Assembly: GCA_030141605.1 (NCBI GenBank)
Contig: JAQGDQ010000091.1
Location: 62,001 to 126,000, forward strand
Length of the DNA stretch: 64,000 bases
Source of the DNA: Tubiluchus corallicola
Taxonomy: Eukaryota > Animalia > Priapulida
Direction of reading: 5' to 3'
Below, piece by piece: positions 2,330 to 51,500 of this stretch. Under the pieces are notes generated by a model, which was not told the origin of the DNA, made no database searches, and saw only the letters and a list, made by a program, of their open reading frames with translations. The position numbers and the translations under genes were made by a program. Position 1 is the first letter of the stretch, and every line of letters starts with the position of its first letter.

Positions 2330-2914
2330 CTTAAATATTGTAATTCTTATGATTATTTAGGTTATGTATTCGCTAGTGATTTACGTGATGATGAGGTACG
2401 AAAGCGCAGTTAAAAGGTCTTTATGTAAGGGCAAATACTTTATTGTTTAAGTTCTCTAAATGTTGTATAAATACGAAAATAATGATGTTCAAACCACATG
2501 CGTGTCAATTTTACGGATGTGCCCTGTGATATAACTTTTTCAATATAACTACACTTTCTTAAAGGTGGCTCGCAATAACGCATTTCGTAGGCTCTTTAAC
2601 ATTTTGGGAAGATGTTGCATAAGTGAAAAATTTGTAAATTATAATATTCCTAACTATGATGTTGTTACACGAAAGATAACAAGATGCTTTATATATGGGC
2701 CGGCAAAACTACCTAATGATATAATTGATAATTTATATGTTTACTCTGCGTATTATAACACTGTTATATGGACAAATTGGTACAAAATATGTTTTGCACT
2801 ATGAGATCAACATGCTTTATCATTTTAAAGGTAACTTTTATTAGGTTTTACACCTTTGTGTATTGTACTTTTTAATGATCTGTCTTGTGTATTTATATTT
2901 TCTGTCTAGGTGCG

Positions 2915-2943
<29 letters not shown>
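2330..2943 (+). mobile_element. Degraded 3' end of a CR1/L2-group non-LTR retrotransposon with (ATGT)n tail
   Basis: Broken reading LKVARNNAFRRLFNILGRCCISEKFVNYNIPNYDVVTRK resembles the C-terminus of LINE ORF2. It is followed by an AT-rich tail and (ATGT)n at about 2915-2943. Confidence 0.5.
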
Positions 2944-2945
<2 letters not shown>

Positions 2946-19477: not shown

Positions 19478-19554
<77 letters not shown>

Positions 19555-22875: not shown

Positions 22876-23779
22876 CTACGGCTTGTAGTTTTCCAAAATC
22901 CACTGCTGTAGGGCGTTTGCTTGATTACAGGGTTTCATGCTGACATCCCCAGATTCTGTCTCCATCTCCAGGCAAAGTGAGCTTAATTCGTGCAGGATTA
23001 AATAGGTCTACAACAACAATTTTATTAAGAATTTATTATAGATGGTGCTATCACTAAAATAATACAACGTCTGGCATTGATACAAAAGATATTGTTCCTA
23101 TAAACTTGAGAAAAGGTGTTCTAGGCAACACAAAAAGTAGATTTGAAAGGTCGAATTTCGACCAAGAATTCTATTTGACAATTAACTGTGAGATGTACTA
23201 TCTATGCAAATTGGACTGCTTGCCTGTCATGTTCTCCTAGTCATACAAAAATTGTATACTCACTTCATTAAAATAATGAGTCTTTTTGACAGACAGTGCA
23301 ACACTAATTAATTGATTATAAAGTTTTTCACCTTTCAGATTATTCAGCTTCGTAATCTCAAGACTGGGCGAAATTTCAGGGATGTATTTTGAGTCTTATA
23401 AGTGTATCAAGTGTATAAGTATGAAAATTACACTGTTATCGTAGATCCAGAATTGATTTTGTTTTTGACCGTGACATGTAGCAATCATAACATCTTCGCC
23501 TGGGAAATGTAAGCATGTATTGTCTCTACGAATTTCTCCATCTTTGGTTAAATGCCAGAACTAAAACAGAAATTAGGAAAGTGTAAACTCATATAGTGTA
23601 TAATTTATAATTTATTAGTGATAAAAACAGATACAAAACAATAAACAAGACATACATACAATTTCAATATAGAAATATGTCCACATTTTAAACAAGCAAT
23701 TGCTGATAGAACAAAATATATTCTAAAATCACTCCATAAAAATGCATATATTAGGTATAAACTATATATATATATATAT

Positions 23780-23846
<67 letters not shown>

Positions 23847-26800
23847 TATATATATATATATATGCCACAGACCACAGAATAGTGGCAATTTTATTATGCA
23901 CTAGAGGTTGCTTATATAATTATATTAGCAAGCAAAATCAACGCTAAATGGGTGGGCGTGCAGAAGAATTTTACAAGAGCATAACGTATTTAAAAAACGT
24001 CAAAGTTAATTAAACTCCAATAATAGAGTTGCGCTATACTATATGTAATAATCACATATCGAAGTGACAAAAAAAGGTAACCAGTTTTTTTGCTAATGAT
24101 ATTTACAAAAACTTCAATACGGTTATAGTTACATATATAAACAATAAACAAACGTACACCATATGTATTAAAAAAGGACCACGTCTAAAACCAACACAGA
24201 AATAACCCTTAATTACAAAAATGAAACAAATAATAAAAAATCCTATGGTATGCTTAAAGAAATGATAAATCTTGATGTTTCAATGTGTCACTGTATACTA
24301 TATTTAGGTGTTAATGTCTTCAAATAAATTATTACTCCAAAATTTGTTTTCTGTTTACAGCTCTACAACACAAATCGTTTTCTGTAATTGTTTTCTGTTT
24401 CTTCTGACAAGAACCACTTATAGTTTCAATCCACGTTCTTTTCTGCTAAACTCACCACAAAAATTTTTCTTAAATTTTTGGTTATTTATTTGATAAAAGG
24501 TTTATTTTGTTGTGCCATCATTCTTGTTCTCGTTGTTCATGTAATAGTTTTTTAGCTAGTTTTTATATTGTGCCTTGAACGTAGTTTATATATACTCTGT
24601 AGTTTGCATTTTCACAAAAAACGGATTTATGGTGTGCTAAATGACATATCCAGGCATTTAGGACAAAAAACTCAAAAAGTGAGTAACCCAATGCTTCGCA
24701 TTTCGGATTATTTTTCTACATACCCACGGTCTACACCCATTTGCTAGAAATTGTACTTACTAGTACATAACTGGTGTTTTTGCTACTGTGCTGTTAGGTT
24801 ATTTTGTGTTTTTTTTTGTTTTCTTTGCGTTGTATTTGCTTATGCTGTTTCTATATTGTGTTTAATTTGTGAATGTGTTACCGCAAACGCTAGTGTTTTG
24901 GTTGTGTGAATCTAACAGGCTTCAAGCAGTGCAACTGTCAACTTATAAAACGCAACGTGGTGCGTTTGGGCATACTTACCTGGCACAGAGGCTTCCATGA
25001 TCAAGAAGGTGGATCCTCTGGAGCGAGACTTTTCCATTGCACTTCGGTTGACTTGACCCCTGCGATTCCCTCAAATCGAGGAAACTCGGGTGTATAATTT
25101 CTGGTAGTGGGGGGATGCGTTCGCGCTATCCCCTGAAAATAAAATAAAGAGAATTAAGTTGGGTTAGGACTTTCTGTTTAAATGTACATGCACTTGTCGA
25201 CGTTTATTAACTGTTAAACAAGATTGTTTTAGTTAGAATGGGTGTAACATACTCTTACAAATCTCAAATTATACCTGACAACACCATTACAATTACTATA
25301 GACTCTATTGCAGAACATTACCTGGTTATCGCCATAACCTTCACACTTACTCACTGTCACGGGTTTTTCCATATATCGTGAATTAGCGGTGAGGCACCAT
25401 GCAGGTGACCCATTACTTTTGCTGCGAACCTAGAAATGTAGTATGAAGACAATATATGGCCTACAAGCATTTTTTATAACACGAAGAATCAGAGATACAA
25501 AATGTACAGATAAAAGGCATGGATGTATTTTGCTAGGTGCGAGGCAAAAATCGCACAAGAAAAAAATTGCACAGAAAAAAATGGTACACAGGTAAAAATG
25601 GTACAGGAAAAAATGGCACAAATGGAAAAGTAGGTAAAAACGGCACGTGTATAGGCTGGATACAGATAATTTGAATAAAAAGGAAGTAATTAAAATAATT
25701 ATGATGCAACATGTAATCTCCAGTAGACGACTTAAAAGTCACTTTCAGATGAAGTGTTCTTGCAAAACAGAGAGAACTTCAAAAAGAAACCGCTATTCAA
25801 GAGATTAAGTAGCTTCTATAGGTTTAGGCCAAGGTTTAGGCCCATTTTCCAGAAAAAGTGTTTCAGAGTTTTTTTTACAGAACAATTATTCTCAGGAAAA
25901 AATTGGCAGAAAACTTTTTCCTAGGAAAATAATTTTCCTAGAAAACTCGTTTCACAGAAAAAACATTTCTCGATCCTTCTCTCCTTCCCTTCCCCTTTGT
26001 CTTTATTTCTTCCCCCCACTCTTCTCTCTGTTCTCTCTCCCTTTCTTATCCCTCTTTCTCTCTTTTTCTGCTTTTTAATTATCTACAATACTTTGACTAA
26101 AGACTATTAGAATTATTTTTAATTCAATCATGCCAAATGGCACAATGTTTAAAGGACCAACCTTGTTTTTTCTAATTTTGTTTTAAGAAAAATATTTTGT
26201 TTTGCAACTTTCACAAATGATTTTTCTATGAGGTGTTCGATCAAGTTTTACGAAAAAAAAAAACGGCGAAAAAACGCCCATTTTGCCACCCTATACCCCT
26301 TTTTCCACAGTGTCGTGGAAATCCGTTACATAGTTTATGCGTAATAGGCTTACTGAAATAACAGACCAAAAACAACCAACCAACCAAACAAACACTGTCG
26401 AAGTATAATCTCCCTGTCAGAGGTAAAAATAAGTAAAATAATTATCAGTCACAATAACCCTAACTCTAAACTCATATTCTACTAAGTGTGCCACTTTTTC
26501 CTGTGCCATTTTTACCGTGCCCTTTTTCGTGTGCCATTTTTATTTGAGCCATTTTTACCTACATTCATTTTGTTAAAAATGTTATGTAAAATAAATAATA
26601 ATTACACACTAGTATAAAAATAATTTTAAAAATTTAAATTGATCACAAGAATAGTGATTAATAACGAATAGAAAGAATCTGCAGTTGCAGTTTGAAACGT
26701 TTTATTTTTTATTTTTTTCTCGTATTTGAATTGTGGGATTGGTTTAATTTATCAAAATTAATCTAATTACTCTAGCGGAGGCGACCTGACATTCGAAATG

Positions 26801-29800
26801 CTGTACTGGCTGGTCAGCTATAAGGGATTAACTTTGGACTGTCAATATTAGTGAGTAACACAGTGATTTACCAAAAATTACGAAAGTTGTAATGGAGTCT
26901 AGTTAGCGCATCAATTTATGATTTTTGTCAGAGCACTTAGTCTTGTGCATATTACCGCATAATTACCGTCATGTACAAGTGTACACAGCAGTGCTAATAA
27001 GAACGAAACAAAACCAAAGACGCAAATACTAAATTTGTTGTCAGGCATTAGAGCGTTTATTATACAACACAAATACTATTATGTAGTTACCTCACCAGTA
27101 GACACAGTATCATTAGGAATAAATACTTCTGGGTAAACATTCCTTATGAACCAATCGAAGGACTGGCATTTTAAGTTCTCACGCAGTTGCTTCTGTCCCG
27201 GTACGTTAGCAAAATCAGCCTATTTCAAAGCACAATGATTATAAAAGTTTATGAATGAAAGTAAATTTGCTAAGTTAGTTAACATTAATTCTGGGTCCAT
27301 TTTCTTGATATTTCTGCCACTATTCTGCAAAACCGTCACAAAATCAACCGGTTTCTTGATAGTCGTAAAACGACACTTATTGAGAAAACTAATTGTAAGC
27401 AAAGTCACAGCTAGTACCTCTACGATAATAATAGTTCACAAACTTGATTAGTGCATTTTTAATTAATAGTCTGCTTTGACAGTTTTTAACACACACGACA
27501 CAGAAAAGGTTGTAATTCGAAATACAATTAAGATTTAGAAAGTGGTGACTTTATTATTCTTTCTTGTTGGGTTGCGCAACTGTTTTTATTCATTGCAGTC
27601 CAATGTTTACTTTTCAAGTAAATGTTTAATTTTTGTAGCACACACCATTGTGTGATGCGATTAATTTCATATAGTAATTCACGTAAGTTATTTAGTGTGT
27701 TTCAAAAGAGACACTGCACTAATAAATGCTGTAAGCATATCAATGTTAATACTTAAATTACACCATTCAATAAGTGCTGTCATACTTAATACATACTTCC
27801 AGTAGTAATTTTAGTATAACTAGCATTTCTTTGCCATTTAATTAGTATATTTCATCATATTAGCACAATTGTTATTACACTTTTTCTTTTCGAACAACCT
27901 GTATTGCAAATGTAACTTACTATATCATGCCTGACTCGGTCAAGATAATACTTCTTGTAGTCATCTAACCAAACCTCTGCCAATCGAGCTCCGTTCTTCC
28001 TGAGACAATTGATCCCAGGCTTCCATTTATAAGGGCTTCGGTCTCGGAAGATATGTCCCACATGTGAGCAAGGGATAATTTCTAGGCTGCCGCCACACAT
28101 CCATGTCTATATGGACAAATTGGCTGAAGTTTTATGTATATTATTCATTATACTTAGACAAAAAACTCAGTGGTAAAATAAGCCAAAACAAGCGTAATTG
28201 CGAAGCTGTATATTTTGTAAGAAACAGCATTACGATTATGGAAAGTTTAATTTATGTCAATTTAATCTATAACGACTAAATCAAGTGATAACTTTATTCA
28301 AATTTACGAATATTTAATATACCTTGAAGGACAACTCCAAATTTTCCCCACCCCATATTTCAAATCCTGGATCATAAGTTCCCAAACGTTCAAACCAGGC
28401 TCGATCAATGGAAAACAGTCCGCCAGCCATGGTAGGAGATATAAAAAATAAATCGAACATAGAGTGTTATTCACAAAAGATAAATCAGGGTGCGAAATAA
28501 AATCTTCTAGCGAAAAAATATTTGGTTATTTAACAATCAGTTATATAGTCAGGTGAGCAAATTAGGTCAAAATTAGATTCAGTTAGAGTTCTGTAAATGG
28601 GACTCCAAAGCAACGGGCGATGCAGATGCATTGAAAAAAGAAAGCTGGATGTTATAATTCAGTACACACACACACACACACACGCACACACACGCACACA
28701 TACACACACACACACACGTGCGCTCTCTCTCTCCCCGCCCGCATATTCCCTTTTTGTTTTTTCTGCCCCTCGCTTCTCCCCATCTCTCTCTTTCTCCCTG
28801 TCTTTATATTCTCTCTTTCTATCCATCTATCTCCCTTTTTTCTTTCCCCACTTCTCCTCCATCTCTCTCTCTCGCTCTGTTTGTTAACCTTTATATGTTT
28901 AGTTCGATGTTTTTGAGTGCGGTATGTTGTCATTTAACATTATTAACTTGTTTTTGTAATGTTTGCATAGTCAATGTATGTTCCTACTATGAATTCATGT
29001 TTGAAAATAAAATATTAAATCAAATCAATGCTACTTCTATTTTAGCACTTTCAAATAAAGCCTTTAAAAAATAAACAGTTTTCCTAAGAGACTGCTCAGT
29101 AAAGGATGCGCTACTCACTGAAGAGGATCAGCGTCGCTTTTTCTACGATCTTCCTCCCAATGAGGTATGACATGCCAGTTAAACTGCAGATTCCAATCAA
29201 ATCCTCCCACATTCATGGCGGAAAGTTCAATGTGTATATACTCTAATGTATCTTTGTCAATTACATCGACTACAGGGCATACAACAGTAGAAGAATTTCT
29301 AGCTATTCTATCAAGCAGTGGTATAAGCCACCCTATAACAACAAATTAGACGAAGCTGTCATGAAAGATAATTAAGCTAATGAAGGCATTTATTAGACAC
29401 TTTTTATACATGTAATGGCTTCTTCCGTCTGTTAAACTGTTCATCCTAAACAATCTCAATTTTCAATTTTTTGGGAAAGAGTTTGAGAATTATGAAACAA
29501 TGTTCAGAAATTCACTACAGCTAACATCACCAGAAAGCAAAAGAGCAAATCACAGTTAAGTTGGAAGACTATTGTTGATATTACAAACTTAGTGAGACTG
29601 TTCTCTTTGAGGTCTGTATACGTAGCTTTATAATGAAAGGAATTTATCTAGTTAAAATATTAGCTTATTTGATTGAAATACACACCTTCAGTACATTCAC
29701 AGTGACTGTCAAGGTACGTTAGTGTGGTCCCTTTAGCATGAACTGCACCTAGTAAGCGGGCTCTGATAAGACCTTCCCTTTTCTTTGCTCGCACAATCCT

Positions 29801-32595
29801 GACTTTACCCAAAGCTGCCATATATTCCTCTAATGGCTTTTGTAAATGATCTGAAAAAATGCAAAGACACAAACGTAATATTGCTGCAAGTCGTTATGCC
29901 AAGGTCAAAATGTTGCTGAAATGTTGTATCTTAAACCTCTGGCAACCTGATGTGCGCAGAGGAGATGATGAATGAGAGTTTGAAGAGCTATATCACGCTT
30001 CGCGACGTCATGACGAGGTAATGTAGCAATGTAAGTGCATCGCGTATTATTTCCACAATACTTATCCTTGAAAAAAATATTGTTGCCCGTAAAAGCTCAA
30101 TCGTTTAACACTTCTTTTAATCGTTTAATCGTTCTTCAAAAACAATATTCGCCTTTAAGATATTTTAACTCATAGGTCGCTTTTAGTTACGGTCTGAAAT
30201 GAAGTCCTAACTGTTTTCATTTACTCAGAGTTTTATCCAGAAACTGAAAAAAGATTTTATGGTTGAGAGGAGGCATTATAGAGTATATTAGACTGTGAAA
30301 CAGAATATTTTTTGCCGTAGCGAATACCCAAGTGGGCGACCGTAATTGGACAGGAACGTCAGGGGTGACGGGATGTGTGGCTATTGGAAAATGACGTTAT
30401 TTAGGCAATAAATATTCAAATCATTAAATTCCTTTTACATATATCTTCACTTTGTTTAAAAGAGCTTTATGACTACGACTTACTCGATAAACATAAAATT
30501 AATCCACATAGTTTACAGAAAAATAATATTTCAAAGAAAATTCTATCTATACAGTAGGTGTTGTATATGAAAAAGAATTAAAAATGGAAAAATGCGTCAC
30601 TAGAAGACAGCAGAAGAACGGCAAGCGACAACATGTCATATATAATACTGCTACGAAAATGACTTCTAACACTAAGCTTAAGAGGTTATAAAAAGTTTTT
30701 CTTATCGCCATCATTGTCATTGTCATTGACGCCATAATCACCATCATCATCATCATGATCATCATCATAGTCAATATCATTATCAATCGTTATCATTTTA
30801 TGGCAACATTTTACCACTTACCCATGTCTGAATCTGAGAAGTCATCGACTAGAACGATCTCTTTTACCAGTTCTGGAGGTGAACGGTCAAGCACAGAGTG
30901 AACTGTACGAAGAAGAGTAGACCAAGCTTCATTATGAAAACATATAATGACACTGGTGTCGGGAAGTTGAGAGATTGGCAGGTATTCTTGTTCAGCACAT
31001 CTAAAATTCACAGGTACGAATTAAACTCTAAATTATCAAAATGTTAGTAAAATCTCGTATTTCAGGAATATTATCTGCCCTCAGGGATATCAGGACAGAA
31101 ATAATTATACTGATGACTTTAAAATGGTAAGAGTAAATTTTTACAACTGTTTTAAGCTCTGCTAATAACAACAGAACCTTATTAATAAACAGGGCAGAGT
31201 AATTTTGAGAACTTTAATTGAGAGTCTTTTTAATTATTTGGCAGATTTTTTCACTCGTTTTGCATGTTCTTTGCACGAGAATGACCCATTATGTCATTTA
31301 GATGTAAAGGTATACAAAGCTTTTCACGAAACATTGAAGTTGTGTTCTTGAGTGTTTAATACCAGTTCCAGTCTCGCCGCAAACGTCAGTGTTATGGTGG
31401 ATTCTGTTGAGTGGCGTATACTGACCTATACTGGGCCAAAGTGTATAAAAAAAGCTGAAATTTAAAAGTAAATGAGCTTAGTTGCATCTTACCACAGTCA
31501 TTTACTAGCTAGATTAGCTGCAATCTTAATGATATCAACAATCCTGACATTTATTAAATTTTGAATATTAGGTCATAGTGCATAGTGCCTACTCAGGATC
31601 GCGGACATCTGGAAGAGCCCTTTGAAGTGAAACCATGTCACTTGCATAGACGTTAAATGCATGTTTCTGCTCTCCTTCTTCCATTTCTCGTTTCTCTCCA
31701 GCAGTGAGATTATCTAATATGACAGCTACACCCCATTCACCAGGTGCATCCGGATTATGCCTGTTCAAAAGCAGGTATAACACATATAAGGTTTCAGTTT
31801 AATTATTGCAAAATCATGAGTGTCTACCCTTTTGCCATTCTTATTACATATATATATCTTCTAAACTTACGCAAGAAGAAATATTTATTATTAGTTAAAC
31901 GAACAAAATTACTTATTAAGACAATCTGCAAGCTTAATAAAAAAAACTGTTGCCAGAATTTTCCCAACTGACGTTTCTGCTCGTTGCTGCTAATCAGATT
32001 CAGTTTGGTATCAGCCATAAAAGGTTACCAACATGAAGAATTCTCTTAATTAGTATGCTTTCAGACGATTCAGTAGTTTTTTCAAAATTAATCTAATGCA
32101 CATATATGTACTCGAAATTACTTACCCAGGAATGATTTTACAAAAATCTTTCTTGTCATACAAATCTTTTTCTTCTCCTTCTATTTCACTGTCTCTAATT
32201 ATTTCTTCGATGCGCTTAATGATAGGCTTGTGACTAATTGCAATATCAGCAGTGTCATTAGCTGCATCATTTGGCACAGATATGTAGTCCAAATTTCTCT
32301 GAGCCGCTTCTTGGGAGGCAAACTCAAATTGTGACTCTTTTTTCGCAGACTCAAACCACTCATTTTTTTCCAGGTAAGGAGATGCATCTATTAAATTATC
32401 TTGTTTCCGAGTTAAATGAAAACTTTCTGTTGTATCTGAATGAATGCCACAAATGACCACAAAAGAGTCTTCTAGGTCCAAACGTTTCAATTTTCTTTTA
32501 TCATAATATGCAAGTATAGGGACAATAAGAAACCATATTCCTGGATTGAGGACTATTGACCTGAATGCAAAGGACCTTTTTAAAATGATACTCAT
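22876..32595 (-). CDS. Polypeptide N-acetylgalactosaminyltransferase paralog B (pgant9/gly-5-like, CAZy GT27 + ricin lectin), 11 exons, about 665 aa; possibly degenerating
   Basis: Exons (minus): 32595-32126, 31760-31593, 31000-30822, 29850-29686, 29332-29119, 28440-28323, 28106-27921, 27219-27091, 25429-25322, 23560-23432, 23007-22876. Motifs [66 protein letters not shown]. No internal stops in the exons, but the exon 6 acceptor is AT rather than AG. Confidence 0.85.
23763..23862. repeat. (TA)n microsatellite
   Basis: Directly visible. Confidence 0.95.
24972..25135 (+). ncRNA. RNU1: U1 spliceosomal snRNA (full-length gene, variant or retrocopy), antisense in GALNT-B intron 9
   Basis: Starts ATACTTACCTGG; loop I GATCAAGAAG; U1A loop CATTGCACTT; Sm site AATTTCTGG; terminal stem GGGGGATGCG-TTCG-CGCTATCCCC; 164 nt. 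Confidence 0.93.
25536..26566. mobile_element. Non-autonomous Mutator-like (MULE/foldback-type) element with subterminal ~15-bp repeats
   Basis: Left-end arrays (GGAAAAAATGGCACA-like) are inverted relative to right-end arrays (TGTGCCATTTTTACC-like). Flanked by 9-bp near-duplicates ATTTTGCTA (25527-25535) and ATTTTGTTA (26567-26575). Confidence 0.7.
28664..28717. repeat. (CA)n microsatellite followed by a CT-rich tract
   Basis: Directly visible. Confidence 0.9.
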
Positions 32596-37865: not shown

Positions 37866-40800
37866 CTATAACTTCTCGGGTTTGTAGTTTTCAAAGACCC
37901 AAAGCTGTCGTTGATTCGTTTGATCACAACTTTCCATACTGACATGTTCGTGGTCTGTCTTCATCTCCATACACTTTGAACTAGATTCATGGCGGATAGT
38001 GTTTGTCTACAATCAATAATAATTGTTAGTTGGTGATTCATGAAGCTGTTTCTACTCATGAAGTGCAATTAGCATTCATTAATAAAGAAGAAATGCCAAC
38101 CTGCAACAATAACTTGGTTGGCAACTTAAAGATGCAAATGTTAACAGGGATATAGAAGTTCCTTACTTTTAAGAACTAATTCTAGCCTCAGTTTTAACAA
38201 CTAGTTCCTATTCCTAGTTCTTTTGCAAATAAAGCTAATTTCAGTTTCTATTTCTTCCATGACAAGAAGAACTTTCAAGTTCGTAGTTCCTGTGACATTT
38301 CAAAAACTTACATTGTGGTCATATTTCCATAGTTGATTTCCTTTTTGACCATGACATGGGTAAATTATTACATCTTTGCCTGCGAAGTCCAAACAAGCAT
38401 CGTCTCTACGAATTTCTCCGTCCTTACTCAATTGCCAGAACTATAATAATAGTAATGCAACTGTTATTGAAATATTTTTGACTTGCAAGAAAAAAGCCTC
38501 AGTTTTGAGAGTGAATTTTTAATATAGCATCGAACTTAAAACCAATTAAATAATAGTCAAAAGAGTTAATGTGTAATTAATATCTTATGTATAATCATCA
38601 TTATATATACATCAATATATATACATCAATATATATATATATGATGCACTACCAAGTCATATCAAAAACACATAGTGTTAGAAAACCATACAGATTTACT
38701 GTACCATAGTGACAGGTCGAGAGGTTCCTTGTTTACCTGATTATGTCTATCCAGTTTCTACTAGTGCAAAGATGAAAAATGCAAAATGTTTTAGTTTGTA
38801 AATTATGCAGTATGCATCAAGGTAGATTACATTATACTAAATTTGGCTAAGAATATATAAGCAACACTATTACTAAAACTACTGCTTTATTAAAACAAAG
38901 AACATGACATATGAAATCACCACTTTGTTTTATCACTAGGTTTATCATACACTTTGTGCCACATACAAGGTACTGTGATTGTGGGTTGTTTGGTTGGTGA
39001 TTTTATGGTTCTGTGTTTTTTCCTTGTGGTCTTTATTCACTGTGTCTCACAGCCTCTGTGGCTTCTTTTGATACTGTATCCCTATTTAATGGTGACATGT
39101 TTTGGATGTGTTACTAATACGAAAAAAAACCAGAAAAACTAGTATTTACTTTCCCTTTCTTTAAATCTTTCATCTGATGATAAAGCAATAGCAATTTGAA
39201 ACACCATGTTCTTTTTTCTTAATTTGTGGGGTTTTTCATTAGTTGCAGGGAATTTATGACATTAAGAATTAAATTTGTGTTATAACTGAGAAAAGTCTGA
39301 CATATTGCAAGGCTATATAGCAACTTATCAAAACAGCAGGTGCGTAACTTTTACGGCAGTGGTTGTAAAAGAATAAATAAATTCTGATAAATAGCCAATT
39401 TAGACGTAACAAATAAGTTGAAACCTGGCAAAATCGAAACACAGCTATCAAAGTACAATGCCAGCATTATTTTATAACCACATTGTCCAGTGGCATTAAT
39501 TTTTACTAATTCACAAAATTCTCGGAAGTGATTAAATTATACCTTAAATGCGATTTTAAATGTCAAAATTTATATTTATAAAGATTATATTTCAAACTAA
39601 AACTTTCACCGGTTTCACTCAACACTAGCAGCATATCAAAAAACATAGTCAGCTGTTTAGTCATCAATCTGATAGCTGAAAGCCTGATAGCCAGCAATAT
39701 AACAACCTCTACAAAACTGCCTGCAAGGCAAGTCTGTCTTGGCCACTTAAATGTAGAAAAAACTCCAAACCTGATTTCCTTTCAAACCATGGCACCTGTA
39801 GGCAGAGACGGACTGACCTTTTGGCCGAACTACACCATCCAAACACCAAAGACTTCCATCGCCAGAATTTCGGATCTAACAATACCCATTTAAAATCACA
39901 CTCCGGTTTTAAATACTGACTGTGGTGTTCTCAAATAAGAGGAAAAGTGCGGCCTGTTAGTAAGATGTGAACCAGATCTAGTTCTACCTACCAGTTCCAT
40001 GAATAAAAAAATAGTAGGAAGCCGAGAAACTGCCCCATGCGCTTTATTAGGGTCATGCTATGCATGCACTTTGATTGTTAGTGCTCAACCTCTGTTGGAC
40101 ATACCTGGTTGCCACCCTGGCGATGGCACCGATACATTGATACAGGCTTGTGAAAAGCGTGACGATTAGCAGCGCTATCTAGACACCATTGTGACCCGTC
40201 ACCTTTGTTACGAACCTAGAAATAGCAGAACGGTATGAAGACACAAGACAGGGTGTGCTATAAAAAGTGTCGAGTCTATTTTATTGAAAGGAAAACTGGA
40301 CCATCACAAATGATTTTTGTGCTTCATGCGTGCATAGTGAAAAACAGCAAAGCAGAAAAAGATATTTCAATTTATACTACAAATGACTGTTTTTACTGCG
40401 TAAAAAAGATCCTCCCACAGTTTTTTGTTTAATTTTCCTGAAAATTTTTAGGTGTTCAAAACACGAAACTCAAGTGGGAAATAGATGACACTATAAAAAT
40501 CAAACAGTTGCTACAATTATATGTTCATAAGTGAACAAGAAACTGCTCAGAGTCTTCAATAGGAATTTAGAAATATAATAATAAAAACAGCAATCTTTTA
40601 GGGCTCCATTAAAAAATAAAGCGACGGCAGGAGTAATACAATGTTGTGAAACGTAAAATATTTTGCAAAACGTAAAACTCCTGTACAAATTTCCTAAAAA
40701 GTGGAACCATTGTACACCCTGGAAGACTTGCTTGCTTTCTTGAAAGTGCTCATTTCTTATAGAAGTTATTATTATTATTATTATTACAGTAAATAAACAT

Positions 40801-43800
40801 AGTAAGACATTTGCACAAGTAAGAGGATATTAAGATCAACTAATAAGTATGAAAAGAGTTAGTTAACGATTAATGTGATTTTCATGCAAGGCAAGTAGGA
40901 TTGGCTTGACAAGAGCAATTACAGGAAACAATAAATTCGTGCAATTAATGAATTCTGACAAGGCACTCTCCCAGAGGCATCTAATGTAATTATTTTATGA
41001 AGCTTCTCGCCTAATTAGATTTTAATTCATGAGCAAAATTTTAAAATCAAGGTATAACGTGTTAATGAAATTTTAATGACCAAACATTAAACATGAATTA
41101 GGGAACCACAGAGAGAGCCGGAATTTGCATAACGTCACCATGTCAGAACATCAATCAATAATGAAATTAAATGTTTATGATACAAAAAACGTGTGCAATT
41201 TGCATTATGTGACGTAATATAAAATTAATATCTATGCTGTATTTAGTATGTGTACAAAAATTAACCTAGTAACATCGCATAAATTCCACACAAATTTCTT
41301 GCATAAAAACGTCTTTAAGTTAATTCATAGCTTTTCATTCTAATTGTGCAGCTTTCACAGGCCATTTCATCAAAGCTTTTTAAGGTGATTATGCCCAAAT
41401 AGCCTTTATATAGATCAGATCATATAGTTGTTTTAGAGATAAACAGACAATACACCTAGCCTTTCGTAACTTTTTTCAAAAGGTGTAAAGTAAAGAATTC
41501 AAAAAGAACAATACTCATATTGCTTACCTCGCCTGATGCCACAGCATCACCAGGTATAAACTGTTCTGGGTAAACATTTTCCAAAAACCAATCGAATGTC
41601 TTGCATTGTAGGTCCTTGCGCAGTTGTTTCCGTGCTGACACATCACCATAGTCACCCTGCAGAACAAAGAATATGTATCAGTGAGCTTAAAGCATTTTAA
41701 AGTTTACAGTTAACAGTGAATGGAAATCAATATGCAAGAACACCGTTAAAGAAACACAGTTAACACTTAAATACTGCTATTATAGTAGCAACCACTTTAT
41801 AGTGAAAAAATTTTTAATAGACAGAAAAGACTAAACATAGCTGATTTATTATTTAATTATAGCAACACTGGATGTGCACTGGCATTTGATGTAGGCGGAG
41901 TCTTCTTCACATCAGATTTTAGTAATGCATATGACAATTTGGCTTGAAAATTAGTAACAAAATTAAACTGTTATAATAATTAACAAACTTCACAAGGAAT
42001 GTTTTTCCAGTTCTCACATTTCTAGCAATCAGTGGTATACACCAAGAAGTAAATGTGCCTTTGAAATTATACTTAAGAAATTCATTTTTCAACAGTAGAA
42101 TAAAAATGTTTATTGTTTAACGAATCTTAAAGACAGCTGTTAATTTGTATTGTGATAGACAATTTATCATGCTAGAATTACTTCACAGTGCTAATTCACT
42201 AAACAGCTTTGTATACCAGCCACTTACTAGGTCTTTGTTGATTCGATCAAAATAATACGACTTGTACTCATCCAACCAAACTTCTGCTAGCCGTACAGAA
42301 TTCTTCTTCAGAACATTGCTACCCGTTCTCCACTTATAAGGACTTCGTTTTCGGAAGATATGTCCTACATGTGAGCATGGAATAATCTCTAAACTGCCAC
42401 CACACATCCAAGTCTATGAATATAAAAATGACATAGTTATTAACCCACTTGTGTCATGAAACTGAAATATTACTCAAATGAAAACAATGGAAAAAATATT
42501 GTTTCAAGTAAATGACATGACATGCAATGACATGAAATAAAAATGTTTTCCTCCAAAGTTAATCTCATTCTGGTTTAGGCTAGGCAATCTCTTCATTAGA
42601 AAAATAAAAGAAAATATCAGTCATAAAAATGCATATAGTATATAAAAAAAATCACTCCTAAACAAGCACTGTTTACAAAAGTATTAAACAGGCAATATCT
42701 TTATAAAGAACAATGTAAAATTATATTCATTTGGAAAATTAAATTTTTGTAATTACCTTGAAAGATAGCTCTAAATTTTCCCCTCCCCAAATATCAAATC
42801 CAGGGTCGTAAGTACCTAGCCTTTCAAACCAGGCTCGGTCAATTGAAAACAGTCCCCCGGCCATAGTGGGTGATCTGAAATATAAAATAAGTATGTTCAA
42901 TACAACTGAAATAAACAGCTTTGTTACGCTAAAAGCTAACACTTTAATGCCAAATAGCGCAAAAAAACATTAATAACTATTAGAGTTATTACTATGTATG
43001 GTCTAGAAACATCGCAAAGATAAAGCCTTATAAAACTTGTAATCAAAACAATTTTGCAGATTTGTACACTGATTAAGCAAAAAACATTTATCCGGTTGTA
43101 TTTTTAATGTCTACACGTTATTTACGTGGTAATTTTCACATAAAATGGAAATGTCAAAGGTGTTTACTTGAAGTGTCTTTGTTAATGGAGGAATCGAAAT
43201 ACCTTTTAATCGCTCAATGATCAGGCGACTTGCTCTGCTAGGTTAGGCCAATAGCTCAAATGGCAGAACATGCAATCTAAAATTGCAAGGATCTGGGTTC
43301 ACAACTGATTAGCACCTTCGTTCTTCAGAGAAATGACATTTTTGTTAATGTGTGCAGGTGTGTGTGACATTTATCTCAGAATTGATACCAAAGCTAAACG
43401 ATACTCACTGAAGAGGATCAACCTCACTCTTCCTACGCTTTCTTTCTCGAGGAGGTATAGCATGCCAGTTAAACTGCAGATTCCAGTCAAAACCACCCAC
43501 ACTAATGGCCGAAGCACGGCCATAGTGGTACTCCAAGGTATTGTCATCAATGACATCTATGACAGGACACACGACAGTAGAAGAGTTTCGGGCTATTCTG
43601 TCCAGCAGAGGTATTAGCCAACCTGTCGAAGAAAGTACTTAATTATACGTAAGATTTAAAACAGTTTCATTTCTGAATGAAAAATGGATTTACTTGTTGC
43701 ATATATTTTTGGCACCTTTACATCTATAGATTTAAGAAGAACTTTTTTGGATGAAAAAAGGCATTATTAGCTTATGTGGCACATTCTTCAGCCAGTAACT

Positions 43801-45534
43801 GCTTTGACATTAATACATTTTATTATTGCCACAATTATAACGTCAATAAACTAACAATTTCAATTGCACGCAAATAATTATGTAAACAAATGACACTAAA
43901 GATTTTAATTTAAAACAATAATTGCAGAAAGCAATAATTTAAAGCAGCATTTAAAGCAAGAAGGAATGACGGTACTTTCATCTATAGCACCTCAAGTATT
44001 AACTATTCCTACCAGTCATTAAGCTAAGATAAATATTACACTTGCTGTTGACAAAAGAAGTTGAGCATGTGCATTGAAGCTTCAAGAATAACGGTCAAGC
44101 CACTTTTTAAACAAGTCATATAAAGTATTTCAAGCTAAATCTTTAACCAAAAAAATGCAATTATGGCAGCTCAACATAGAAAATAGAGCAAAAATATAAT
44201 TCTTTCATAACACACCTTCACAACATTCACAGTGACTGTCAAGATATGTCAATGTGGTCCCTTTAGCATGTGCTGCTCCAAGTAAGCGGGCTCTGATAAG
44301 GCCTTCTCTCCTTTTTGCTCGTACAATCCTCACTTTGCCCAGAGCTGCCATGTATTCTTCTAATGGCTTTTGTAAGTGATCTGACAAAAATTGCAGAATC
44401 ACCATAAAAATTTCAGTATAAGATGTATAAAGATTGGTTGGTTTAGATGTGGTGTCTGTATATTACAATAAAAACTCATGTAAGTTACACATGTTTTTAA
44501 CAATTAAGTAGAACATTGAAATACCTTTTGAGCAACAGAACTAAGCTATAGCAAGTAAACCAGAAAATCACGAATAATATGTTAGAGGTTAAAGAGATTG
44601 TTGGATCGATTACACCTTTTCAAACTTCGTTTGAATATGTAATTATTGTAATAAAGTCAATAATTACCCATTTCTGAGAAGTCATCTACAAGAACAATCT
44701 CTTTTACCAGTTCTGGAGGCGAACGGTCAAGCACCGAGTGAACTGTACGAAGAAGGGTAGACCAAGCTTCATTGTGAAAACATATAATGACACTGGTGTC
44801 AGGAAGTTGAGAGACTGGCAGATACTTTTGCTCTGAACACCTGAAAATGAGAACATTCAGTTACCATTAGTATCTGTATTCATTATTTCAAAACTGACTT
44901 GTATTATGGCTAGTTCATTGCAGAAATATGATAGAGTTTCTTAGTTCTGTACTGTAAAGCTGCACAATTATCAAATTCAGAGGGCCGCTGCAGACGGGGA
45001 CATAAGTTATAATTTACAGACAGAAAAATCACCCAAAAGAATGAAGCATGTATATATATATATACACACAGTAATAATAACTGGAAGAAACCATAGCTCA
45101 AGTGCATTTTTCTTCACTTGCGTATGAAAGAAAAGTTATCTGAATCCCATGCTATCTCCATCTGTTTAAAGGCTATCGTAAGATGCATTACGATACCTGA
45201 TTCAGTCAGCAGTCTACCACTGCTTTAGTTGAGTTTAACTGAGCAGAAATTTAATTAAGAGCAGAAACACTAGCTAAGTTTAAAATTTATACACTGAGAC
45301 CGGCATTGCACAGTTTCCAACAACCTGTTCTCATAAGCATAAACAATATTTTAAATATATAGGGTGTTTCGTTTTTGCAAGCAAGGTGTTGGATATTTCA
45401 TATGGCATTTCATTTTTTTGGTTTTGTTAACCTGTCTCTTTATGTTCAGAGAAGTTGTACTGCATGTGCACATATTGATGTAAAATAGATAAATATGTAC
45501 GTTCGAATAAATAATAATAATAATAATAATAATG

Positions 45535-45583
<49 letters not shown>

Positions 45584-48500
45584 CAATAATATATATGATA
45601 CAAGTGTATCATTTCGTTTGGTTTAGATTTGACGATGCTTATACTGTAGGCCGTAATTAACGGTCCATTTTATTGGCAAACCAGCAGAAACTTAGCACTA
45701 TTTCCTTCCTAAAGTGGAGAATGATGTAAAATCTTACGCCCGAGCAGCTCACGTCTATAAACCTGTTAGGTCAGCTCCCTCAGCTCAATAAATCTCTGCT
45801 TGATTTTCAGGGTATAGTGGCTTTAGGCTACTGGTAAGGCTACAGCCAATATTGACTGAACAGATCAACCGAGGTTATCATTACGTCCACTTGAACAAGT
45901 GTCAGTTCAGTTGCAACAGAGTCTGATATCGAAACCTAGCAATCTCGAAATGTCGCCGTAACTTCTGAATACGCCATCAACAAATTAAACTGAAGCGTAT
46001 TGAACAAGCATTTGATACATTTTTCGTTTATTGACATGACGTGCATTATCAATAGTTACTGTTTTATTAATGACATATGAAATTAATTATGGTACTGAAC
46101 ATTTTGATTGCTGATTACTTTGAAGTTAGTACGTTTGGTAAAGGCAATAAACCCGAATAATGGATTATGTTATTATTTATTAAAATGGTATTGCTGTAAC
46201 TGTGTAAATTCAAATCAACACAAGGGCAGAAACTCAAGAAATGTTATTAGATATAGCTAGCTATTGAACTATTGAAAGATTTACATTATTTCACAATCAG
46301 ATAAGCTAAAAAGTTTACGCATCTTGAACAAAAATTTTAAATGAAAAAACAAAAAATGTGTTCTCCTACTTTTTTCTCTTTCCTGCCATTTTTCTTGTTT
46401 TCTCTCCCTATCACCTCTCCTCTGTTCTCTCCCCCTTCTCTATTTTTTTGTTAACTTCTCTCTCTCTCTCCCTCTCTCTCTTTCTCTCACCTAGAGCACA
46501 CGGATTACATAATCTAAATTTTGTTCAACTTGTTTTTATTGAAAGATCAATGTGAAAAGAATTCCCGGCAGTAATTTAAATCAATTATCAACATGTTTTA
46601 TTTCATAGCAACATTATGACATTCTTACTGCTGCCAGGTTAAACAAATCAATCACTCATGGACGAACTCAAAATAACCTTATATTAGTACGCCTCCGCCC
46701 TAATCGCAGTCGATAGTACTGCATTGCAAAATATAAAAGGTAGCATTTTTGGCCCACACAAAATGCCTACTTCTGGACCTAGCTTCCGATCATGTACTTT
46801 ATGAAATCAGTGACACGAGGCGTAAAAACTGCGTTTAGACGAATGCCCAGTATTTAATCCAGTGACCATTGTGAAAACGCACCAATTAGTACGAAAATAG
46901 GTCATTTGGATGAAAATGCTTCAAAAAGTGAGCAAGCCAAATACTGATTTTTGTAGGATGGATGAAATTATGAACATGACAATGTTATAACATAAGACAC
47001 GGGAAATACAGAAAGAATAATCAACAACTGTTGTTTTTCACTAGGGTGGGATCTCAAAATTCTCTGTTTTGTAAGAAAAAATTCAAAATATGAAACTTGC
47101 AGGTGCAGCTGAAATTGTAACGAAAGATGTTGATGTTGAAAAAACAAACTGCATGAAAAAAACTCAACTCGCAGTTTGTGTTTCGTCTGCAGTATTTTAG
47201 GCAGTTGGGGCGTAACCAATTAGTTATTCCAAGCGAAATTATATTTAAATCTGAAATTCCAGATTGTACGAAAAAGCATCTTTGAATGTATCAGCAAAAG
47301 CTATTTCTATCTTATCATTTAAATATAACATAATGGTTTTTATCAGCAGGTTAACACACACGCAATAAGAGCAGGTGCTAACTCTATACATCACGCTTTT
47401 GATATCTAACCAAACAAGGGCAGAATGCAATATATCAACAGGCGGCAAAGTTACACATTATCATTACAGCGAGTATTACATTCACCAGTGCATGCCTATA
47501 TATTCATTGATCCATTTGTCTCATGAATTTAGGTCATCTTTTAGTACACTTACATTCTCTCATGCATGGTATTTGAGATAAAACCTTGCGATTTTCAATG
47601 GCAAGGTAGTGAAAGTGAAAGGTGGGCCAAGGAAATACAGCATTTGTTCAACTTTCTTTCAATGAGAAATGTTGTAATTTTTTAAAAGTTAAGCCTCGCT
47701 ATCTATTCAATAATCTACCTACTTAAAAATCTCCTAAGTAGCAGTGAATTGACTGCACAATGCCTTTAACACAATGCTTTTGTTTTATTTACTGCAAATT
47801 TTTATGTACAGAAAAAAGTCTCAAGGAAAATGCAATGGTATTTACTTCAAAAACTGTGATCCACCTGTAATCGCTTTTAACGACAATTAGTTTAGATTAA
47901 ATGGTTCAGATTTTAGCACATACATTTCGGCTCCAGCCGCCCAAAACATTAAAAAGCCTTTCAAGACGAGCAAAAATTGAAAGAAAACGGCGTAAATGGC
48001 CATGAAATTTTCACTAGTGACGCTGCTACAGCGAAACAGCATCCCAAAGAAACACGCACATTCGGACAGCCAAGCTAATATCATGGAGGAAGTCGCCAAT
48101 CAGCAAAAGCCAACAATGCAGACGTAACAGCATTTCCATTAATGTGTGCTTGACTTGCAGCTAATGTTCGGGAAAGTAGTGTAAAAGCCACTAAAGGGGC
48201 TTTGCACTAACGAAGTAGGAAGCCCGGTAATTATTAAGCGGTTCGCAAATACACTTTGAACAACCGACGCATACTAACGACTACTGAAAGATTTTAATTG
48301 ACCATGTGCAATTAGCGTGGCTCCGTAGGCGCAAGGAAGTTGGATGGTGATTGGCGATTAGTAATTATTATCTACGTGTATGCGTTGGTAGTCTGATTTT
48401 TATTTAAATACTCCAAAGAAATTCATATAATAACATTTTAACAACAGTTTTAAATAATCATTTGACTGAGAGTTAAATAATCATTTGATTACGCAGTTAA

Positions 48501-51500
48501 ACATAAATCATTCATTAAAAGCATAAATACAGAAAATAAAATGATAGTCGTAGGTAGCTGAAAACAGAAATGAAAAACGTTTTAGCGTCATCATTATAAA
48601 AACTTCTAGCAATGAAAAATTAAAGTGTCGTTCTCTTTATAGGTTTTAGTTATATTTTCAAAACTTTAGGTTTTTAAAAATACTTTGACTTGCTCCTACA
48701 ATCTTGTATTGTATATTTAAAACCTTGATCTTTCAAGACGCCATACCCCTTTCTTAAACCGTAGATTATAAAACTGAAATTAAAAACTGATACGAAATTT
48801 TATGGGTTTTACCATTTGAGAAAAAGGCATGGTGTCTCTAATTGTTAAACCTTAAAACTAAAGAAAACTCAAGCAAACTTGGCACATTGATGCACTATAA
48901 CGTAGTAACCTATTGTATATCTTATATGAAAGTTAAAATTGTTTTGCACAACATAGGATACCTTTACTTGGCAAAAAACCAGCCTGTGCAAGTTTAGCCA
49001 CCATTTCAAGAAACGAATTGACGAGAGCTATTTCATTCTAGATTTATGCAGCACGATTTTACATTCATAAAACTGCATCTAAGATGAAACTAAGATGATT
49101 TTTATTATTCAGCCTGCTGTAGGAGGTCTCTTTGTCTCTTTCGTCCGCCAAAGAGAATCATCTCGCAAACTGATACTTCCAGAAAGCACTATATACTACT
49201 CTTTGAAACATGTCTGGTCTTACAGTAGCAGCAACTATTGTATATAAGCCAGTCTAGAGTAGGAAATAAGGTCATCCAGGGGCTATGGACCCACAAATCG
49301 GTTTCATTTAGACTTGCAAATGCGTTTAGACTTCAGCTAAATCAATGAAGCTCAGCAGTACACAGCTGGCAACTGTTGATAAAACGAGGGAAAGAATTTC
49401 GAGATAGAGATCTCTTAGACGAGTCAGTTAATTTCATGCACAGTGACTTAGATATTTATATTATTGTAAGCAGTCTCAGTGATTTCAAAGTTTAGATGGC
49501 ATGGCATAACAATTATTTACAGAAGCCATATTAAAATAGTTTACATTAGTCATAATACTGGATTGCTTGCACATACGTTCTATCATCAAGTAAATGAATT
49601 CAAACGTCCCAATTTCCATATAATTCCAACTGGGAACTGGTCAGGCTTTGATATCAATATGCTAATATCTCGTCCTTGGTGGAGGCTCGAATGCTTCTGG
49701 TGAGACACAGACATAGCGTACATGCAATAACGTTATTCCCATGTACTGAACCACTGTTTAGGAGTAGGGCCACAAAGTTTTCACTCAAAAATTTTAGTTC
49801 CAGAGGAGACTTGTGTGATGCAAGGCAAAAACAAGGCAAAAAGTATTACTGTAAGAAAACCTAGTCAACGATTAAAATTTTTTAACGAACAGTCAAAGTT
49901 TAACCTGATATATTGCACAATGCTACAAATAGCCAAGAAGCTGCAATTTCAGCAGATTCAGTCCATTGTTCATCAGCCATCACAATTTTACGATCGTCCA
50001 TAAAATAAGCCCTTAACCATGCTAATTTCAAATAAACCTTTCGCAACCCAACTATAAAACATTTAACTGAGTTCAACATAACCAGAAGTATATTAAAACT
50101 TGCAGCAGCTCGAGCTGTAGAGGACGATTAACTCTCATAAATGCATGCACGGTTGAGCGCTGTTGAAGTGCTGATGAGGTAATTAGACAAATGAGATTTT
50201 CCCCATACGCATTAAGTGCTTTTCATTAAAACGGGTGAAAAGAAGTAAAAAGTTATCAAGGGCAGATTTAATTAATAGTTTTGTATAGGATGGAAGCAAA
50301 TGAAAAAAATATACCCAGGATAAAGTTTGTTTTTCTGCAAGCCATTAAAAGCTGTAATCCATAGGTTTGAATCATTCCCCTTTTTCTGCAACGACCTGTT
50401 TAATCCGTATAACATTGTAATTTAGTGTTAGTAACAGCATTCTTTGTTAGCTACTTTGAAATTACACCTTCTTTGTTACACTCTTTCCTATATAATCTGA
50501 AAAATCTGTTTACATATGGCCTAGCAATGAATATAAAATTTTTTTGCGACTGTTGTGAAATAAACATGTTTTAATTAGAACTTAAAAAACAAACTTACTC
50601 TTAAAAACTTATGCTCAGTTCGTAGTGGTCATGTTTGTATCTAACTAACATTGAGTTAATAACTAGTTAATCACGAGCAAATATCTAGAATAGAACATTT
50701 GACACATTACGAAAATCTTATATTTACTTTGTACACTTCTGAAACTGCAAAAGCTGTAGCCTGTATTTTGGTCATTTTTTACTTACACATTATCTTGGAC
50801 TTGTAGTTCAATTTATAATGATTTTCTTAGAAAAATTTTTAACCATTAGAAATTTTAACGATACTTACTGAGCATCACGTACATCTGGAAGGTGCCGGTG
50901 AAGTGAGATCATATCACTTGCATACTGGTTAAATGCATTTTTTTTCTGACCATCTTCCATTTTTTGCTTCTCTTCTGTATTGAGATTATCTAATTTAACG
51001 GCCTTGCCCATCTCGCCAGGAGCATTGGGGTCATACCTATTAGAACGTGCGAGCATTAATTCACGATTTTATAATTTTTTAACTTGAATGACGGATCAGG
51101 TCATTTACCAGAAGGCTACAAGGTTTCCAGATTTCAGCCTTAAATATGTTGAAGATATACAGTTCTTAGTACCAATAAACTTAAGTTTTCCTTCTCTAAT
51201 CAATATGGATAGCCAAAGCCTGGTCGCTTAATGCTCACTGAATTTAATCGTTATTTACACCATTTATTTTTAGAACAAGGTTGAGGAAGGTGAATGGCAA
51301 CCTTAATATTAATTTGTTACATTTTTACTTGCTGCAACTTAACATATAACTTTTTTACAAGCAAGCTGTACAGCATCATAAAATTACAATGCTGGAAAAT
51401 ATCAGTTGGAAAAATATTGGGCTGAAAGATGTTTTGAGCCAAAAACAAGGAAAGTCATATGCTAACTTACATGATGTGTTATAAAATTTATTATATACAA

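What the first reader, a model, noticed from the sequence alone, without database searches (positions are those of the whole stretch)
24972..25192. An antisense U1 snRNA copy defines a perfect in-frame poison exon where the paralog has its alternative lectin exon
Seen, on the GALNT-B (minus) strand: branch point TCCTAAC (25169-25163, branch A about 32 nt upstream), an AG-free pyrimidine tract TTCTCTTTATTTTATTTT and CAG (25135-25133) at the U1 3' end, then 153 nt of antisense U1 (25132-24980), then CAG|GTAAGTAT. That donor is the exact complement of the U1 5' end, so an ideal 5' splice site. The cassette is phase 0/0 like its neighbours and reads [43 protein letters not shown], with TGA at codon 44 coming from U1 loop I. 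It starts 189 nt after the alpha exon; GALNT-A has its second alternative exon 229 nt after the homologous exon. An AAGTGCATG RBFOX-type site (TGCATG at 25192-25187) is shared with the GALNT-A intron. Inference: the U1 copy may have replaced the mutually exclusive exon and inherited its regulation, turning an isoform switch into an NMD or truncation switch. The exon RNA could also pair with U1 along its length, and U1 transcription from the opposite strand could interfere.
Basis: partly seen in the sequence, partly recalled or inferred. Interest (0 to 1): 0.88.

Follow-up and report, generated by a model that had tools for sequence, protein, structure and literature searches.

The report
Backwards U1 gene mimics poison exon
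A full-length copy of the U1 splicing-RNA gene sits backwards in an intron of a duplicated sugar-transferase gene of what is likely a priapulid worm; many animal-type U1 genes read backwards spell the same stop-containing exon shape, so this is likely a by-product that may leak into transcripts, not an evolved switch.

Summary
All the signals are at the stated coordinates. The element is a full-length U1 (Rfam 139.6 bits), one of a multi-copy family, lying antisense in intron 9 of GALNT-B, a fast-evolving duplicate of a PGANT9/gly-5-type gene. Most of the 'perfection' is generic: 15 of 17 unrelated 164-nt U1 genes give YAG + 153 nt + CAG|GTAAGTAT backwards, all 15 with an in-frame stop, 12 at codon 44. 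The pyrimidine tract is an A-rich flank shared with other U1 copies. Against a regulated switch: GALNT-B lacks the AG of its catalytic exon 6 here, with no rescue, and the A and B introns do not align. Inclusion is untested. The scan noted the automatic donor before on other DNA (e1-9173747). Verdict: nested U1 copy with an unselected cryptic exon (0.63); co-opted poison exon 0.13.

The parts
24972..25135 (+). Full-length U1 snRNA copy (164 nt): 5' end, U1-70K loop, U1A loop, Sm site and stem-loop IV present; a single-copy sequence variant of a multi-copy family
   Evidence: Rfam RF00003 139.6 bits, model 1-166; own contig 24928-25092 at single-copy depth, other classes differ at 6 of about 60 nt; 6 both-sides changes and 5 broken of 42 consensus pairs
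25136..25152 (+). A-rich U1 3' flank; read on the minus strand it is the pyrimidine tract
   Evidence: three other-copy contigs in run X1 follow the window to 25142, 25147 and 25150; flanks of other U1 genes are A-rich too, 0.42 against 0.29 further out, in 43 of 48
24944..24950 (+). TATA-like TATAAAA at -28 to -22 of U1; function untested
   Evidence: sequence
24980..25132 (-). Predicted 153-nt phase 0/0 cryptic exon, the reverse complement of U1 nt 9-161
   Evidence: same shape in 15 of 17 control 164-nt U1 genes
25001..25003 (-). In-frame TGA (codon 44), the reverse complement of the U1 loop I sequence
   Evidence: codon 44 is a stop in 12 of 15 controls
24972..24982 (-). Donor CAG|GTAAGTAT, the complement of U1 nt 1-11
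   Evidence: top score of all donors and decoys; GT predicted paired in a short hairpin
25133..25135 (-). Acceptor CAG, the complement of the U1 3' end; its G and the first exon bases are predicted paired in the mirrored stem-loop IV
   Evidence: unpaired probability 0.01 or less
25163..25169 (-). Branch-point-like TCCTAAC, outside the shared family flank, kept in the diverged sample X5
   Evidence: CTAAC in 3% and CTRAY in 16% of random 40-nt intron windows; loose end of X5 contig 12
25187..25195 (-). AAGTGCATG, RBFOX-type word (motif label recalled; UGCAUG/RBFOX also in PMC4165533) shared with the GALNT-A alpha1-alpha2 intron
25322..25429 (-). GALNT-B lectin alpha exon (exon 9), closer to A alpha1; sugar-site Asp and His replaced (D563T, H581E in A numbering)
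23432..23560 (-). GALNT-B lectin beta exon (exon 10)
28441..28442 (-). GALNT-B exon 6 acceptor reads AT where GALNT-A has AG; no other AG restores the frame
22876..32595 (-). GALNT-B coding span, 11 exons, 665 aa if spliced like A, no internal stop
37866..52587 (-). GALNT-A coding span, 676 aa, PGANT9/gly-5 type
40105..40215 (-). GALNT-A alpha1 exon (111 nt), the one present in the transcript-derived protein P0007
39771..39875 (-). GALNT-A alpha2 exon (105 nt), predicted mutually exclusive alternative
   Evidence: 51% identity to alpha1, AG/GT, phase 0/0

Best explanation
This is a full-length variant copy of the multi-copy U1 snRNA gene lying antisense in an intron of the duplicate gene GALNT-B, and its exon-like signals are likely an unselected by-product of reading U1 and its A-rich 3' flank backwards. 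Shown: U1's 5' end gives the donor, its CCCCUG end gives the acceptor, 164 minus 11 nt gives the 153-nt frame, loop I gives the stop. Inferred: the copy arose at DNA level with the family flank and is older than the split from the diverged sample X5; it is a weak or decaying variant; if GALNT-B is transcribed the cryptic exon is likely included in some transcripts (I put this near even odds), which would be truncated in the lectin domain and degraded; the cost is tolerated because B is a relaxed duplicate whose lectin sugar sites are gone and which, in this sequence, has a broken exon 6 acceptor. B likely lost the second alpha exon through that relaxation, not through replacement by U1.
For: 15 of 17 control 164-nt U1 genes give YAG + 153 nt, 15 of 15 with an in-frame stop, 12 at codon 44, 10 with at least 18 AG-free nt; one control acceptor scores 11.4 against the window's 11.5. 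With another end rule on all 130 loci, 17 of 76 give the same shape, all with the codon-44 stop. Summed contig depth over U1 is 1711-5604 against 131-159 on the flanks, and three other-copy contigs share 7-15 nt of the flank. 6 both-sides pair changes against the control consensus show selection on the sense structure in this lineage. 47 of 120 C. elegans snRNA genes are nested in introns and only 17% have a C. briggsae ortholog (PMC3342880, passages). B has 80 private amino-acid changes against 13 in A, and D563T, H581E, D605H in the lectin. B exon 6 acceptor is AT; 0 of 55 AGs restore a full frame; skipping ends the frame at 406 aa. Intron alignment is at chance level. Exonization is reported to be commoner in duplicated genes (PMC2231382, abstract).
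Against: The window's acceptor is the best of 29 control YAG acceptors and has the highest pyrimidine share (0.88; next 0.82), and only 3 of 15 controls have a CTRAY word in range. The shared GCATG-containing 9-mer occurs in 0.5-1% of segments. In X5 the two ends of the likely orthologous copy differ at 1 of 34 and 1 of 33 nt while 84 internal nt are replaced by 45 (net 39, a multiple of three) and the branch-point word is kept. dN/dS of A against B is 0.20, so B was under purifying selection for most of its history and the acceptor loss is recent, a polymorphism, or an assembly error.
Confidence: 0.63

Rival explanations
1. Co-opted poison exon: the antisense U1 cassette is kept by selection as an RBFOX-repressed, stop-containing exon that switches GALNT-B off by NMD or lectin truncation in some tissues, in place of the lost alpha2 exon.
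For: Both sites top all real sites and decoys. TGCATG lies 55-60 nt before the acceptor and is shared as a 9-mer with the A intron, which has three GCATG words. X5 keeps both ends and the branch-point word but lost the middle in frame; its alignment starts at U1 nt 3, the +6 of the donor; binomial chance of such ends is 0.04 each at 14% divergence, 0.13-0.14 at 10%. Position 189 nt against 229 nt after the alpha exon.
Against: Shape is generic to U1. The read-laying tool reports only pieces at 82% or better, so conserved ends are selected by the method; U1 function or gene conversion until recently explains them too; an intact 8-mer has 10-43% chance. X5 contigs 11 and 12 have depth 23-29 against 2.6-9.6 for the X5 contigs listed, so they may be multi-copy. 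A stop-containing exon needs no frame. Broken exon 6 acceptor upstream. Acceptor G and donor GT predicted paired.
Confidence: 0.13
2. Insertional knock-down: the U1 copy is included so often (or its donor outcompetes the alpha donor) that it crippled GALNT-B, which then began to decay; the exon 6 acceptor loss is a later step.
For: Donor 11.7 against 7.1 for the alpha donor 342 nt upstream; extension of alpha to the U1 donor also ends in a premature stop; broken acceptor.
Against: The insertion appears older than the split from X5, yet B has no stop or frameshift in 665 codons and dN/dS 0.20; the three X1 differences in the alpha exon are 2 synonymous and 1 replacement.
Confidence: 0.12
3. Processed U1 retrocopy: the A-rich flank is a decayed poly(A) tail and the copy was never transcribed from its own promoter.
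For: Exact full length, A-rich 3' flank; most broken pairs of the 24 aligned U1s (5; controls 0-3; about one is a register shift); neither human PSE nor human 3' box consensus (PMC5493778, passages) is matched by eye.
Against: No target-site duplication longer than 6 nt. The contig break at 25118 and the loose end at 25147 imply that another copy shares the first 12 flank bases exactly, T's included (inferred), which fits DNA-level duplication. Promoter elements are lineage-specific, so the human consensus is a poor test.
Confidence: 0.12

Closest known systems
Intron-nested spliceosomal snRNA genes under birth-and-death turnover (Caenorhabditis, Drosophila; PMC3342880, passages) and variant U1 genes (PMC5493778, PMC4291461, passages)
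   Same: Multi-copy family, one copy inside an intron, variant sequence, likely orthologous copy decayed in a diverged sample.
   Different: The passages seen give no orientation and nothing on antisense splice signals; expression of this copy is untested.
Exonization of antisense insertions such as Alu, commoner in duplicated genes (PMC2231382, abstract; others as search listings)
   Same: An antisense non-coding insert supplies acceptor and donor inside a duplicate gene under relaxed selection.
   Different: The donor here is perfect by construction and needs no mutation; the insert is a spliceosomal RNA gene; no inclusion shown.
Drosophila pgant9 exon 8A/8B (PMC6115407, passages) and C. elegans gly-5 exons 9b/9c/9a of 111/105/102 nt (PMC4165533, passages)
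   Same: GALNT-A has two homologous alpha exons of 111 and 105 nt; PGANT9 is the best PDB match.
   Different: GALNT-B has one alpha exon with degenerate sugar site; alpha2 use in A is predicted, only alpha1 is seen in a transcript-derived protein (P0007).
Regulated poison exons (e.g. SCN1A 20N; search listing only)
   Same: Cassette with an in-frame stop more than 55 nt before the last junction (55-nt rule recalled).
   Different: No shown inclusion, regulation or NMD; conservation evidence is one ambiguous contig pair.

Membership tests
U1 snRNA (Rfam RF00003) | Full-length match above the gathering score | tested here: met
   139.6 bits against 69.5, model 1-166
U1 snRNA (Rfam RF00003) | 5' end, loop I, loop II, Sm site and stem-loop IV intact | tested here: met
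   4 departures in 79 columns invariant in 23 controls, none in these elements' core
Functional U1 gene | Stems kept | tested here: inconclusive
   28 same, 3 one-side, 6 both-sides, 5 broken of 42 pairs; controls 0-3 broken
Functional U1 gene | PSE and 3' box | tested here: inconclusive
   human consensus not matched by eye; family-shared A-rich flank; lineage consensus unknown, no genome held
Functional U1 gene | Transcribed, capped and assembled into snRNP | not testable with these tools
   needs small-RNA or TMG-cap data
Processed retrocopy | Target-site duplication and poly(A) tail | tested here: not met
   longest flanking direct repeat 6 nt; flank shared with other copies
Poison exon | Usable acceptor and donor | tested here: met
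   top matrix scores; predicted partly paired
Poison exon | Premature stop upstream of the last junction | tested here: met
   150 nt upstream
Poison exon | Included in mRNA, regulated, NMD-sensitive | not testable with these tools
   no raw RNA reads were offered
Poison exon | Productive host transcript to be switched off | tested here: inconclusive
   open frame and dN/dS 0.20, but exon 6 acceptor AT with no rescue; base not verified in reads
Poison exon | Conservation beyond what U1 function explains | tested here: inconclusive
   X5 contig pair
PGANT9/gly-5 mutually exclusive alpha cluster (GALNT-B) | Two or more homologous alpha exons in tandem | tested here: not met
   one in B, two in A; the U1 peptide has no Pfam match

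The most novel reading that the evidence does not exclude
A spliceosomal U1 gene has been recruited backwards as a ready-made, RBFOX-gated poison exon that replaced the PGANT9/gly-5 isoform switch in a duplicate gene, and selection now acts on its antisense splice signals: in a diverged sample the copy lost 39 internal bases but kept donor, acceptor end and branch point. More widely, most 164-nt animal-type U1 genes would be pre-built exon-trap cassettes for any gene that hosts them antisense.
Probability: 0.13. Interest if true: 0.75.

Novelty: new member of a known kind. Interest (0 to 1): 0.3.

Why it matters
If the by-product reading holds, the locus is ordinary, but it yields a general and cheaply testable rule: a 164-nt U1 read backwards is usually a complete 153-nt stop-containing exon (15 of 17 controls), so antisense intronic U1 copies should be depleted, silenced or exonized in well-sequenced animals. 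I did not find this stated in seven full-text searches (listings only; open-licence PMC and bioRxiv only). If the co-option reading holds, it would be a new source of regulatory exons, taken from the spliceosome's own RNA, and a change from isoform switch to on/off switch after gene duplication.

Tried and rejected
No genome is held, so other U1 copies could be seen only as contig pieces. No RNA holder listed for 23300-27400; the one guessed RNA run, X6 (13 million letters, contigs), had 0 contigs on 24830-25440 and none on B-specific exons: no evidence either way. No B-type protein at E up to 1e-27 (5 hits of 747 candidates, all insect) and no protein with the antisense-U1 peptide (0 of 2 candidates): weak negatives. 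The base at 28441 was not among the 41 differences shown of 288 and both read-laying runs are used, so it is unverified; holes in X1 cover there prove nothing. A 40-nt alpha2-like match just after the B donor (25315-25278; 1.25% of shuffles, 0 of 121 coding pieces, three regions tested) was not accepted as a remnant: it does not extend and conflicts in order with the RBFOX match. A looser A/B intron alignment was reached by 14.5% of shuffles. The antisense strand has no unusual overall fold (z -0.3). Hairpin masking of the acceptor is not decisive: 3 of 20 real acceptors are more paired. The donor count in controls (68 of 68) is fixed by the search pattern and is no test. Pairing of the exon RNA with U1 along its length and transcriptional interference were not tested. 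Earlier-finding look-ups by place and by sequence were empty.

Full report
Observation. Rfam gives a full-length U1 on the plus strand, 24972-25135, 139.6 bits. On a small matrix from the 20 acceptors and 21 donors of the two GALNT genes, the acceptor (11.5) and donor (11.7) score above every real site (leave-one-out maxima 10.6 and 11.0) and above all 998 AG and 1119 GT intronic decoys. Inclusion after or instead of the alpha exon, or extension of alpha to this donor, gives a stop 150 or 378 nt before the last junction.

Host genes. The window holds two tandem minus-strand GALNT genes with 11 matching exons each. Drosophila PGANT9 is the best solved match and Priapulus caudatus the best named sequence match of an exon (81%; 68% over the whole protein), so the animal is likely a priapulid or near relative (inferred). 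GALNT-A has two homologous alpha exons of 111 and 105 nt, like pgant9 8A/8B (PMC6115407, passages) and gly-5 9b/9c/9a, 111/105/102 nt (PMC4165533, passages). An unnamed Logan protein, P0007, 96% identical to A, carries alpha1. B groups with A (FastTree), has 80 private changes against 13, dN/dS 0.20, and has lost lectin Asp/His residues (D563T, H581E, D605H; their role as sugar-site residues is recalled). B has one alpha exon, closer to alpha1.

B exon 6, which carries the catalytic WGGEN segment, is preceded by TTTTTTAT where A has TTTCAG. A spliced A-type contig in run X6 leaves the window exactly at 28440 and continues into the previous exon's sequence (read by eye), which fixes the boundary. 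None of 55 AGs between 29100 and 28325 restores a full frame and skipping ends it at 406 aa. If the base is real, B transcripts are already truncated two exons before the alpha exon. I could not verify it in reads.

Control: what other U1 genes spell backwards. I ran Rfam on the first 80: 73 full-length U1, 2 cut off, 5 without a hit. Dropping 2 duplicates and 3 with short flanks left 68. Of these 29 have YAG at the U1 3' end; 17 are 164 nt long, and 15 of the 17 give YAG + 153 nt; all 15 have an in-frame stop, 12 at codon 44; 10 have at least 18 AG-free nt; 3 have a CTRAY word in range. With a different end rule on all 130 loci, 17 of 76 give the same shape, all with the codon-44 stop, and the first 17 flank bases are richer in A than distant flank in 43 of 48. 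So donor, acceptor, length, frame and stop are one fact: this is a U1. Against my reading, the window's acceptor is the best of the 29 (next 11.4 and 9.8) and has the highest pyrimidine share (0.88).

The family in this species. In DNA run X1 summed contig depth is 1711-5604 over U1 and 131-159 on its flanks; this shows several copies, not a count. The window's copy is its own contig (24928-25092, depth 131); three other classes (depth 826, 710, 282) differ at 6 of about 60 nt. Three other-copy contigs follow the window 7, 12 and 15 nt past the U1 end and then leave; their later letters do not match this flank beyond chance (6-16% of random places). The pyrimidine tract is therefore mostly family flank, while the branch-point word is particular to this locus. 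Against 23 control U1s the copy keeps 75 of 79 invariant columns, has 6 both-sides pair changes and 5 broken pairs of 42, more than any control: a variant with a history of selection as U1 and some signs of decay. No target-site duplication over 6 nt. Nested snRNA genes are common and short-lived: 47 of 120 in C. elegans, 17% kept in C. briggsae (PMC3342880, passages).

(a) The 9-mer AAGTGCATG is shared with the A alpha1-alpha2 intron, which has three GCATG words; a GCATG-containing shared 9-mer occurs in 1.0% and 0.5% of control segments, though any shared 9-mer occurs in 24% and the introns do not align (73% of random segments score as well). (b) In run X5, a sample with the same species label and none of the sampled words, two contigs that overlap by 30 nt match the upstream flank (24830-24866), both U1 ends (1 of 34 and 1 of 33 differences) and the downstream flank including the branch-point word (0 of 5000 random places score as well), while 84 internal nt are replaced by 45. 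This is likely the orthologous copy, dead as U1, with a 114-nt antisense frame. Caveats: the tool shows only well-matching pieces, the deletion may be recent, the contigs' depth (23-29) is above other listed X5 contigs (2.6-9.6), and one deletion in three keeps frame by chance.

How it most likely works. Shown: an antisense U1 copy supplies strong predicted splice sites and a stop. Inferred: the copy came in at DNA level, is a weak or decaying variant, and its mirror exon is unselected; the mirrored stem-loop IV is predicted to pair the acceptor G and may damp it; any inclusion would give truncated, likely degraded RNA from a dispensable duplicate (exonization is reported commoner in duplicates: PMC2231382, abstract). 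Odds: by-product 0.63, co-opted regulated poison exon 0.13, insertional knock-down 0.12, retrocopy 0.12. Nothing here measures inclusion.

Comparison and novelty. It is a U1 family member by test; a poison exon only by prediction; not a member of the PGANT9/gly-5 alternative-exon cluster. An earlier AI note on a skate intron made the same point on the automatic donor (e1-9173747); I tested that part here and extend it to the whole cassette. Seven searches (listings only) found no paper on antisense U1 copies used as exons; subscription papers are not covered. Papers seen: passages of PMC6115407, PMC4165533, PMC3342880, PMC4291461, PMC5493778; abstract and outline of PMC2231382; no supplements. 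Verdict: new member of a known kind, interest 0.3.

Noticed in passing
window 28441-28442 (minus): GALNT-B exon 6 acceptor is AT, not AG, with no in-frame rescue: young pseudogene, null allele or assembly error.
   Followed up: partly
window 39771-40215 (minus): GALNT-A has a tandem pair of alpha exons (111 and 105 nt) with three GCATG words between them and a CACTAAC about 25 nt after the first donor; extends the pgant9/gly-5 switch to a likely priapulid.
   Followed up: partly
window 30822-31000 and 29686-29850 against 44668-44840 and 44216-44380: Exons 3 and 4 of A and B are 87-90% identical (dS 0.38 and 0.81) against 72-81% for most others: possible gene conversion. B exon 3 has a 6-nt in-frame insertion.
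   Followed up: no
window 55838-55956 (minus): Single full-length 5S rRNA copy (101.9 bits) beside a GC-rich stretch near 55400-55800 with no Pfam match.
   Followed up: no
window 17930-21088 (plus): Three exons match the RFX BCD domain (PF25340): an RFX-type gene converging on the GALNT-B 3' end.
   Followed up: no
window about 24516-24823, 25440-26671: High-copy AT-rich repeats in the B introns on both sides of the alpha exon (summed depth up to 190,000 in X1), with short inverted units.
   Followed up: no
window 28074-28422: Three X1 contigs of depth about 160-240 differ from B at these exon positions: there may be more than two PGANT9-type paralogs.
   Followed up: no
L007, L018, L048, L054, L058, L065, L067, L001, L023, L027, L036, L056: U1 genes lie within 400 nt of U2, U4, U5, 5S rRNA or tRNA genes in these metagenome contigs.
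   Followed up: no
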